Shown here piece by piece: positions 1-4,073 of a stretch of DNA of 4,073 nt. The DNA is from a virus (taxonomy: Duplodnaviria > Heunggongvirae > Uroviricota > Caudoviricetes): the IMG/VR virus record IMGVR_UViG_2703718790_000002; one strand, 5' to 3'. The notes beneath the pieces were generated by a model. The model made no database searches. It was not told where the DNA came from and worked only from the letters and a program-made list of their open reading frames with translations. A program made the position numbers and the translations under genes. Positions within the stretch are counted from its first letter, which is position 1, and the number at the start of each line of letters is the position of its first letter.

Positions 1-564
1 CGGGTTACCTGCAGCCAGCGGTGCCGGTGCCCCCTGCATCAGACGATCCAGCGCAGTATCACTGCGCGCCTGTGCACTCTGTGGTGCTGCGGCCAGAATG
101 CGGCGGGCCGTTTCCACGGTCATACCGGGGGTTTCTGCCAGCACGCGGGCCTGTTCTTCGCGTCCGTGAGCCTCCTCACAGTTGAGGATCCCCATAATGC
201 GGCTGTTTTCTGCCGCAACCGCAGCGGTGATCTGCGCGTTCACGTCCGGCTGCGCCGCGCTGGCGTTTTCGCCCTCCGTCGCTGGCACCACGCCAGTAAC
301 GTCAGCCTGCGAAGCAGTGGCTGAAACAGTTGTTGATTGAGTCTCTTTGGTCATTCGCCCTCCTGAGAGACGGGATTTACGTGCATCCAGTGCATCACGC
401 ATAACGGTGATCGCATCGGTGCTGTTGACAAGTTCATCAGCCAGTCCGGCATCAATGGCCTCCTGACCGCTGTACACTGCAGCCTCGGTATCCAGCACAG
501 CCTGCACGGACAGGCCGGTATATGCCGACACCTTCTGCGCAAACATCCGGCGGGTTGCATCCAT
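1..564 (-). CDS. nu3: Scaffolding protein Nu3, nested in-frame in the 3' part of gene C; 3' end beyond the window start
   Basis: In-frame ATG at 564..562 giving MDATRRMFAQKVSAYTGLSVQAVLDTEAAVYSGQEAIDAGLADELVNSTDAITVMRDALDARKSRLSGGRMTKETQSTTVSATASQ… The position matches the recalled lambda Nu3 start once the 143-bp deletion is allowed for. The frame is open to position 1. Confidence 0.6.
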   Translation of the reverse strand, partial: MDATRRMFAQKVSAYTGLSVQAVLDTEAAVYSGQEAIDAGLADELVNSTDAITVMRDALDARKSRLSGGRMTKETQSTTVSATASQADVTGVVPATEGENASAAQPDVNAQITAAVAAENSRIMGILNCEEAHGREEQARVLAETPGMTVETARRILAAAPQSAQARSDTALDRLMQGAPAPLAAGNP

Positions 565-823
565 CCGGGACTGCAGTGTTTCCCGGACATCACCCGGTAG
601 ATGGCTGTAGGGGTTGCCATCCACCTTATGGCTGCCGCTGTAAATCAGCGTGATTTCCACGCCCTGTTTCTCCAGGGCAGCACCGTAATTACTGTGAGCC
701 ATCATGACGCCGATGGAGCCTGTCCGGGCGGTCTGCGTGACCAGACGCCGGGAGGCGGCGCTGGCAAGCAGCTGACCTGCACTGCAGTTCATGTCGTTGG
801 CCAGCGCCCATACCGGTTTTATG

Positions 824-1115
824 TCAACCCGAATACGGCTGCAGCGCCCGCGTCCGGCTGACCAGCGTACCGGACACCGGCAGCACGGCGATGCCGTTCA
901 TGACCTGATAACTCCGGGCCTGTCGTGGTCCGTCATCATCACCGGATAACGCCAGCGCCGCGGGTGCCTCTCCGGCAGTCAGGCTGTCGCCGGATACTGC
1001 ATCCGTCAGGCGGCTGATCCCAAGCTGGCCTGCAAGCGCACAAAAGAAAACCCGCGCATAGGCGGGTTCAAGCATCAGCGGCTCATTAAAAGCCATGCTG
1101 GCAATATGCGGGAGA

Positions 1116-1135
<20 letters not shown>
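824..1135 (-). CDS. C: N-terminal fragment (103 aa) of the head protease/minor capsid protein gpC, ending at a premature stop
   Basis: GTG at 1135..1133 preceded by GAGGAGGAG (1148..1140). Translation VTAELRNLPHIASMAFNEPLMLEPAYARVFFCALAGQLGIS…SRTRALQPYSG, then TGA at 826..824. The 20-nt overlap with the portal 3' end matches the lambda B/C arrangement as I recall it. The track ORF 824..1270 includes a spurious 45-codon upstream extension. Confidence 0.8.

Positions 1136-4073
<2,938 letters not shown>

What the first reader, a model, noticed from the sequence alone, without database searches (positions are those of the whole stretch)
800..850. Out-of-frame internal deletion of about 143 bp in head protease gene C, junction at 823/824
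The gpC N-terminal 103 residues end at …ALQPYSG and hit TGA at once. gpC sequence resumes in another frame at DIKPVWALANDMNCSAG…, skipping about 47 codons plus 2 nt. The retained downstream block still carries the NCSAG serine motif I associate with the S49-type active site, but it is disconnected from the start codon. A 143-bp loss is unlikely to be a base-calling error.
Basis: partly seen in the sequence, partly recalled or inferred. Interest (0 to 1): 0.75.

Follow-up and report, generated by a model that had tools for sequence, protein, structure and literature searches.

The report
Probable assembly artefact in prophage protease gene
The 143-base gap in the phage head-protease gene is really in the sequence as given, but it and a second frameshift nearby sit exactly on the sites where near-identical prophage copies differ, so it is most likely an assembly error rather than a biological deletion, and either way it is ordinary.

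Summary
The window is the minus-strand head module of a lambda-like (Stx1a-phage-type) E. coli prophage: terminase large subunit, W, portal B, protease C with nested Nu3. Compared with intact relatives that differ from it by a single SNP, gene C lacks a net 143 nt. The gpC reading frame stops after exactly 103 codons (TGA at 826..824). Residues 104-151 are lost. The rest of the S49 domain, including Ser166 in NCSAG, continues out of frame.

The biological reading is doubtful. The portal gene has a second lesion, +1 nt at window 1763-1764. Both lesions are absent from 5,426 complete E. coli genomes and three other collections, and the backbone has no private SNPs. In a map of about 125 alleles, the +1 sits on a common T/G site. 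The deletion runs exactly from a common G/A site to a common T/A site, the first and last of a four-SNP cluster that separates the nearest natural alleles. Other draft assemblies break at the same two places. Chance probability is about 2.5e-4 to 2e-3.

The most likely cause is mis-resolved variation between co-resident prophage copies during assembly or polishing. If real, it is routine prophage decay. Interest is low.

The parts
2918..4073 (-). C-terminal part of the terminase large subunit gene (gpA-like). It runs off the window end and is intact.
   Evidence: The frame is open from window 4072 to the stop at 2918. It is identical to the intact CDS in L003.
2715..2921 (-). gpW-like head-tail joining protein gene, intact.
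   Evidence: 68-aa ORF. It corresponds to the L003 CDS at 7153-7359, 'phage head-tail joining protein'.
1116..2718 (-). Portal gene (gpB-like), split into a 348-aa ORF and a 223-aa ORF by a +1 frameshift.
   Evidence: The two ORFs match Pfam Phage_portal_2 profile positions 2-257 and 276-354. Intact homologues are 533 aa.
1763..1764 (.). Lesion 1. AA on the + strand (TT on the coding strand) where all intact copies have a single base, at a common T/G variant site (L003 8310).
   Evidence: Insertion mapped. The site carries G in 110 of 121 alleles. A 51-mer probe found no match in complete E. coli genomes, and an exact 32-nt pattern found none in three other collections. Scaffold L017 breaks at the adjacent base.
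827..1135 (-). The N-terminal 103 codons of the gpC-type S49 head protease gene, with a GTG start at 1135. The stop TGA follows at 826..824.
   Evidence: This fragment alone has no Pfam hit.
826..827 (.). Lesion 2, the junction. AA on the + strand (TT on the coding strand) stands in for the 145 nt L003 9246..9390, a net loss of 143 nt.
   Evidence: L003 9246 is G/A (A in 53 of 129) and 9390 is T/A (A in 29 of 127). Natural alleles L092, L142, L084 and L076 differ from the backbone here at exactly 9246, 9297, 9342 and 9390.
1..825 (-). gpC residues 152-426, out of frame with the start codon. It contains the Peptidase_S49 domain, with the Ser166 codon at window 783..781. It runs off the window 42 nt before the C stop.
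   Evidence: Pfam PF01343, 146.9 bits. Ser166 aligns with the SppA MAASGG nucleophile motif in 3RST. The block is 100% identical to intact L003.
1..364 (-). Nested Nu3-like scaffold ORF in the C frame. Its ATG is at 354..352 and an AGGAGG ribosome-binding site is at 364..359. It is unaffected by the deletion.
   Evidence: The nested C/Nu3 arrangement of lambda is recalled from established knowledge. Nu3 as the scaffolding protein is in PMC3224144.

Best explanation
The window is the head-morphogenesis module (terminase large subunit, W, portal B, S49 protease C with nested scaffold Nu3) of a lambda-like prophage of the type found in Stx1a phages and in O26, O103, O145 and O157 E. coli. As written, gene C has 145 nt replaced by 2 nt, and portal gene B has 1 nt replaced by 2 nt. 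I think both lesions are products of sequence reconstruction and not of biology. This module occurs in several near-identical copies per genome. Where two co-resident copies differ, an assembler or polisher sees a variant 'bubble'. Here a single-SNP bubble (L003 8310) and a four-SNP bubble (9246-9390) were resolved wrongly, which left a spurious frameshift and a spurious 143-nt gap. The underlying DNA most likely carries intact B and C genes. What is shown: the lesions, their exact coincidence with variant sites, the breaks in other assemblies at the same places, and the fact that the lesions are unique to this window. What is inferred: the reconstruction error itself and which software step caused it. 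Both lesions appear as AA on the window's + strand, which may point to a short placeholder such as N converted to A. That is speculation.
For: (1) Both lesions are private. A 51-mer across the junction and a 51-mer across the portal +1 each give no match in 5,426 complete E. coli genomes. The control 51-mer of the intact left breakpoint hits 2,767 places in 2,196 genomes. Exact patterns for both lesions give no match in genome contigs, viral contigs or metagenome contigs, while the intact pattern hits at least 120 viral contigs. (2) The backbone has no private substitutions. Four complete genomes each differ from it by one SNP, each at a different site. (3) In a map of about 125 alleles, the +1 lies on L003 8310 (T/G). 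The deletion's first changed base is 9246 (G/A) and its first retained base is 9390 (T/A). Simulation puts the chance of this at 2.5e-4 under a strict definition and 2e-3 under a loose one. (4) Natural alleles differ from the backbone in exactly these modules. L024 differs only at 8310. L076 differs only at 9246/9297/9342/9390 plus one distal SNP. L092 and L142 differ at those five sites plus 7616 and 7905. (5) Independent draft assemblies break at the same two places. Scaffold L017, otherwise 100% identical to L003, has a gap starting after 8309 and ends at 9245. At least nine other draft contigs end at ...TATTCGGG or one base beyond it. (6) The module is multi-copy, with up to 8 places per genome. 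Residual assembly errors are reported to concentrate in genomic repeats (PMC8812927). (7) The junction is not a clean microhomology product. Slippage between the two TGAC copies would give TTCGGGGATGACAT, and the window has TTCGGGTTGACAT. No intact copy carries the T at L003 9389 that would template it.
Against: No reads are available, so the artefact is inferred and not seen. The coincidence test was devised after the pattern was noticed. The closest two-allele pair in my sample (backbone against L092) also differs at 7616 and 7905, and the window has no lesion at either site. The co-resident partner must therefore be a different recombinant, or only some bubbles were mishandled. I could not name a specific assembler that replaces a bubble by two bases. 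A pure de Bruijn graph contig needs read k-mers across any junction, which would argue for a real molecule. The window's own ends do not abut common variant sites, so nothing identifies the assembly type. A T-to-TT duplication is also a common kind of real mutation.
Confidence: 0.78

Rival explanations
1. This is genuine, very recent decay of a defective prophage. A real 143-nt net deletion in C and a real +1 in B inactivate head assembly in one isolate. The product would be a 103-residue gpC stub. There would be no protease, because the DTPGG segment is lost and Ser166 is out of frame. Nu3 would still be made from its own start, and there would be no portal. The prophage could not form heads unless complemented by, or recombined with, a co-resident lambdoid prophage.
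For: The lesions are unambiguous in the sequence. Defective lambdoid prophages are common in these lineages; for example, Sakai Sp15 carries an IS629-disrupted protease/scaffold pseudogene, ECs_2960. C and B are essential in lambda, so both lesions would be inactivating (PMC10695390). A junction in a graph-based short-read contig would need supporting k-mers.
Against: Two private frame-breaking lesions lie 940 nt apart on a backbone with no private SNPs. Neither is shared with any of at least 2,767 copies in complete genomes. All three lesion boundaries fall on common variant sites, with a chance probability of about 2.5e-4 to 2e-3. There is no clean microhomology.
Confidence: 0.17
2. The lesions are real and were created by recombination between co-resident, slightly diverged prophage copies. 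Heteroduplex DNA would carry mismatches exactly at 8310 and at 9246-9390, and faulty processing of those mismatches produced an indel and a deletion bounded by the outer mismatches.
For: This is the only biological model that predicts lesion boundaries on inter-copy variant sites. Recombination between temperate phages and defective prophages is described in the abstract of PMC3945230, which was listed but not read.
Against: I know of no E. coli mismatch-processing pathway that deletes exactly from the first to the last mismatch and leaves an untemplated base. Nothing here tests this model. It needs two rare events in one isolate.
Confidence: 0.04

Closest known systems
Bacteriophage lambda gpC (S49 prohead protease) with nested Nu3 scaffold
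   Same: The gene order is the same: terminase large subunit, W, portal, C, then D and E in intact relatives. The intact homologue is 439 aa with a Peptidase_S49 domain. The serine in NCSAG is at residue 166. An in-frame internal start with AGGAGG precedes the Nu3-like product. C is listed as an essential S49 peptidase / viral protease in lambda (PMC10695390).
   Different: In the window the ORF is interrupted after codon 103 and residues 104-151 are missing. The host element is a Stx1a-phage-type prophage and not lambda itself.
Signal peptide peptidase SppA (S49), Bacillus subtilis structures 3RST and 4KWB
   Same: Intact gpC-like residues 81-298 align at E = 1.5e-21. NCS166AG aligns with the SppA MAASGG motif, and the deleted LLDMDTPGG aligns with SppA VLKVNSPGG.
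   Different: SppA is a membrane-associated cellular enzyme with no scaffold domain. I could not map the position of the general-base lysine with confidence.
Pseudogenised head genes in defective EHEC lambdoid prophages (for example Sakai Sp15 ECs_2960)
   Same: A head protease gene is inactivated within a lambda-like prophage.
   Different: The Sakai lesion is an IS629 insertion annotated as a pseudogene in a finished genome. The lesions here are private, sit on variant sites and leave no other trace of decay.
Residual or introduced assembly errors in genomic repeats (Wick and Holt 2022, Polypolish)
   Same: The locus is multi-copy and near-identical between copies, the errors are private to one assembly, and the lesions are located where copies differ.
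   Different: The published cases are mostly small substitutions and indels. A 145-to-2 nt replacement is larger than typical, and the responsible tool is unknown.

Membership tests
Lambda gpC-type S49 head maturation protease gene | Peptidase_S49 domain above Pfam's gathering score | tested here: met
   The downstream block (window 825..1) scores 146.9 bits against a cut-off of 24.9. The intact homologue scores 147.8 bits.
Lambda gpC-type S49 head maturation protease gene | Nucleophile serine aligned with the SppA catalytic serine motif | tested here: met
   Ser166 in NCSAG aligns with MAASGG of 3RST. The codon is present at window 783..781 but is out of frame with the start codon.
Lambda gpC-type S49 head maturation protease gene | Uninterrupted ORF from start codon through the S49 domain | tested here: not met
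   TGA follows codon 103, and 48 codons plus a frame shift are missing. As written, this is a pseudogene.
Lambda gpC-type S49 head maturation protease gene | Head-module synteny and a nested in-frame scaffold (Nu3) start | tested here: met
   The order terL, W, portal, C is present. The Nu3-like ATG is at 354..352 with AGGAGG at 364..359.
Genuine prophage pseudogene (lineage decay) | The lesion is shared by related genomes | tested here: not met
   No match for either lesion in 5,426 complete E. coli genomes or three other collections. Positive controls worked.
Genuine prophage pseudogene (lineage decay) | Accompanying signs of relaxed selection, such as private substitutions or further lesions | tested here: not met
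   Every backbone base at a SNP site is shared with at least one intact genome. The 826 nt after the junction are identical to L003.
Genuine prophage pseudogene (lineage decay) | Read or PCR support for the junction | not testable with these tools
   No reads or strain are available.
Repeat-associated assembly or polishing artefact | The locus is present in several near-identical copies per genome | tested here: met
   There are up to 8 places per genome. The genomes closest to the window carry 2-6 places each.
Repeat-associated assembly or polishing artefact | Lesion boundaries coincide with sites that differ between copies | tested here: met
   L003 8310, 9246 and 9390 are all common variant sites. 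Alleles exist that differ from the backbone only in these modules. The chance probability is 2.5e-4 to 2e-3.
Repeat-associated assembly or polishing artefact | Independent assemblies fail at the same positions | tested here: met
   L017 has a gap after 8309 and its contig ends at 9245. At least nine other draft contigs end at 9245 or 9246.
Repeat-associated assembly or polishing artefact | Reads contradict the assembled junction | not testable with these tools
   No reads are available.

The most novel reading that the evidence does not exclude
Both lesions are real and mark a mismatch-directed mutational process. Recombination between co-resident, nearly identical prophages creates heteroduplex DNA, and aberrant processing at the mismatched sites yields an indel at an isolated mismatch and a deletion running exactly from the first to the last mismatch of a cluster. 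This would be a previously undescribed route by which multi-prophage genomes inactivate their own phages.
Probability: 0.04. Interest if true: 0.55.

Novelty: not a real feature. Interest (0 to 1): 0.06.

Why it matters
It matters mainly as a caution. Frame-breaking lesions in multi-copy prophage modules should be compared with the variant sites between co-resident copies before being scored as pseudogenes. Otherwise an intact and possibly inducible Stx-type prophage may be misclassified as defective. If the lesions were real, they would be one more private example of lambdoid prophage decay, which is already well known in EHEC genomes.

Tried and rejected
1. Clean microhomology-mediated deletion. 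The two TGAC copies would give a 142-nt loss and TTCGGGGATGACAT, and the window has TTCGGGTTGACAT. Rejected.

2. Templated junction T. An intact 51-mer carrying T at L003 9389 has no match in E. coli genomes. Rejected.

3. Finding the source contig. The 348-aa frameshifted portal product is not on record. The 103-aa gpC stub is on record in 50 blocks, but by other routes: GGGG to GGG in the NCTC assembly L004, and contigs that simply end there. None of L001-L009 carries the junction. Of the four extra contigs fetched, L013-L015 and L019 end at L003 9245, before the junction.

4. Window ends as graph branch points. They do not lie next to common variant sites, so this says nothing about the assembler.

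5. Sakai Sp15 as the second co-resident copy. It has a different head module, disrupted by IS629. I did not show both alleles co-residing in one complete genome. The evidence for co-residence is the draft-assembly breaks.

6. Literature confirmation of the gpC catalytic residues. Medina et al. 2010 is not held, and the search for Ser166 returned nothing relevant. The Ser166 assignment therefore rests on the SppA alignment.

7. Internal restart. The first in-frame start after the junction is the ATG at window 792 (Met163), and it has no Shine-Dalgarno sequence. A functional truncated protease is unlikely.

Full report
WHAT THE WINDOW IS. All genes lie on the minus strand. They are the C-terminal part of a terminase large subunit gene (4073..2918), a gpW-like gene (2921..2715), a lambda-family portal gene (2718..1116) and a gpC-type gene that starts at GTG 1135 and runs off the window start. 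The first 1300 bases are 99.9% identical to Stx1a-converting phages. The whole window is about 100% identical to prophages in complete E. coli genomes such as strains 01_3327, 03_3013 and E2865, where the four genes are annotated as terminase large subunit, head-tail joining protein, portal protein and S49 family peptidase. Pfam confirms Phage_portal_2 and Peptidase_S49. In lambda both B and C are essential, and C is listed as the S49 viral protease (PMC10695390).

The window aligns to intact copies in two blocks, and 1300 window bases span 1443 reference bases. On the coding strand the reference reads TTCGGG|GATGACC...GTGTGCG|TGACATAAAA and the window reads TTCGGG-T-TGACATAAAA. So 144 nt are lost and one T is present, a net loss of 143 nt, or 47 codons plus 2 nt. 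The ORF from GTG 1135 encodes exactly 103 residues ending ALQPYSG, followed by TGA at 826..824. The sequence resumes at residue 152 (DIKPVW...) in another frame. The junction is at window 826-828 and not at 823/824.

The 48 lost residues (104-151) include LLDMDTPGG, which aligns with VLKVNSPGG of B. subtilis SppA. Ser166 in NCSAG aligns with the SppA MAASGG motif and is retained but out of frame. The first in-frame start after the junction is Met163, and it has no ribosome-binding site. The nested Nu3-like ORF keeps its ATG (354..352) and its AGGAGG (364..359).

The portal gene carries one extra base, TATTAC-TT-CCG where intact copies have TATTAC-T-CCG (window 1763-1764). This splits it into a 348-aa ORF and a 223-aa ORF.

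BOTH LESIONS ARE PRIVATE, AND THE BACKBONE IS NOT. I used 51-mer probes centred on each lesion, with halves too short to seed a match on intact copies. Neither probe finds anything in 5,426 complete E. coli genomes. The control 51-mer of the intact left breakpoint finds 2,767 places in 2,196 genomes. Exact patterns for both lesions are absent from genome contigs, viral contigs and metagenome contigs, while the intact pattern occurs in at least 120 viral contigs. Apart from the lesions, four complete genomes each differ from the window by one SNP at four different sites. The window therefore has no private substitution, and the 826 nt after the junction are identical to L003.

THE SAME 103-RESIDUE PRODUCT ARISES ELSEWHERE BY OTHER ROUTES. 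The exact stub is indexed in 50 blocks. One is an NCTC assembly (L004) in which GGGG became GGG, giving the same ...PYSG*. That module carries ten single-base deletions in all. The others shown are draft contigs that simply end at ...TATTCGGG or one base further. That drew attention to the base that follows, which is G in some phages and A in others.

THE LESIONS SIT EXACTLY ON INTER-COPY VARIANT SITES. I built a polymorphism map from about 125 alleles, using the viral contigs plus the E. coli loci. All coordinates here are those of locus L003.
- L003 8310, the site of the extra base, is T/G, with G in 110 of 121 alleles.
- L003 9246, the first changed base of the deletion, is G/A, with A in 53 of 129.
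- L003 9390, the first retained base, is T/A, with A in 29 of 127.

Close natural alleles differ from the window's backbone in exactly these modules. L024 differs only at 8310. L076 differs only at 9246, 9297, 9342 and 9390, plus one distal SNP. L092 and L142 differ at those five sites plus 7616 and 7905. The window therefore replaces a single-SNP difference by two bases, and a four-SNP cluster, from first to last SNP (145 nt), by two bases. On the + strand both replacements read AA.

I simulated a random one-base duplication together with a random 144-nt deletion. All three boundaries hit sites with minor-allele frequency of at least 5% with probability 2.5e-4 under a strict definition and 2e-3 when allowed to be one base off.

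Independent assemblies fail at the same two places. Scaffold L017 is 100% identical to L003, has an N-gap starting after 8309 and ends at 9245. At least nine further contigs end at 9245 or 9246.

INTERPRETATION. This head module is a multi-copy repeat, with up to 8 places per genome. Residual assembly errors are reported to concentrate in such repeats (PMC8812927). Four things together point to a reconstruction error at the variant 'bubbles' between two co-resident copies, and away from mutation: the lesions are private, the backbone has no private SNPs, the lesion boundaries sit on variant sites, and the junction has neither clean microhomology nor a templated base. I put this at about 0.78.

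CAVEATS.
- No reads were available.
- The coincidence test was devised after the pattern was seen.
- The best two-allele pair in my sample also differs at 7616 and 7905, and the window shows nothing unusual at either site.
- I cannot name the software step responsible.
- The idea that AA stands for a converted placeholder is speculation.
- The window's ends do not abut common variant sites, so the assembly type is unknown.

IF THE LESIONS ARE REAL (about 0.17). They would be very recent, private decay of a lambdoid prophage: no head protease, no portal, and the Nu3 scaffold still expressed. Such a phage could not build heads without help from a co-resident prophage. This kind of decay is well known in EHEC; for example, Sakai Sp15 carries an IS629-disrupted protease/scaffold pseudogene. 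A small residual possibility (about 0.04) is a real, mismatch-directed process during recombination between co-resident copies. Only that reading would be novel.

VERDICT. The biological interpretation is doubtful. The finding is either an artefact or ordinary prophage decay, and interest is low.

Noticed in passing
window 1763-1764 (portal gene, 2718..1116, minus strand): A +1 frameshift splits the portal gene into a 348-aa ORF and a 223-aa ORF. The extra base sits on a common T/G variant site and, like the gpC junction, reads AA on the + strand.
   Followed up: yes
L004 (GCA_900449705.1, UGDL01000001.1), whole head module: This NCTC assembly carries ten single-base deletions across the 4.2-kb module. 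They fragment the terminase, portal, protease and capsid genes. One of them (GGGG to GGG at L003 9243) gives the same 103-aa gpC stub. This could be consensus error or real decay.
   Followed up: partly
L005-L009, L013-L015, L019 (draft contigs) and L017 (scaffold JHGM01000047.1): Many independent draft assemblies end contigs at ...TATTCGGG or one base beyond it (L003 9245/9246). L017 also has an N-gap starting after L003 8309 and a 22-nt sequence duplicated on both sides of a second gap. This is the signature of graph branch points between co-resident prophage copies.
   Followed up: yes
L146 23608-24567 (NC_002695.2, Sakai prophage Sp15): The Stx1 prophage of O157:H7 Sakai has an unrelated head module in which the protease/scaffold gene is annotated as a pseudogene (ECs_2960) beside an IS629 copy. 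It is a documented example of real head-protease inactivation.
   Followed up: no
window 1116-1135, 2715-2718 and 2918-2921: Adjacent head genes overlap: B and C by 20 nt, W and B by 4 nt, A and W by 4 nt. This is the usual arrangement for translational coupling in lambda-like late operons.
   Followed up: no
L003 9246-9390 (the gpC region equivalent to the deleted segment): The four SNPs 9246, 9297, 9342 and 9390 travel together as a block on otherwise near-identical backbones (L076, L084, L092, L142, and O157 Sp8-type copies). This looks like a short gene-conversion patch exchanged between prophages.
   Followed up: partly
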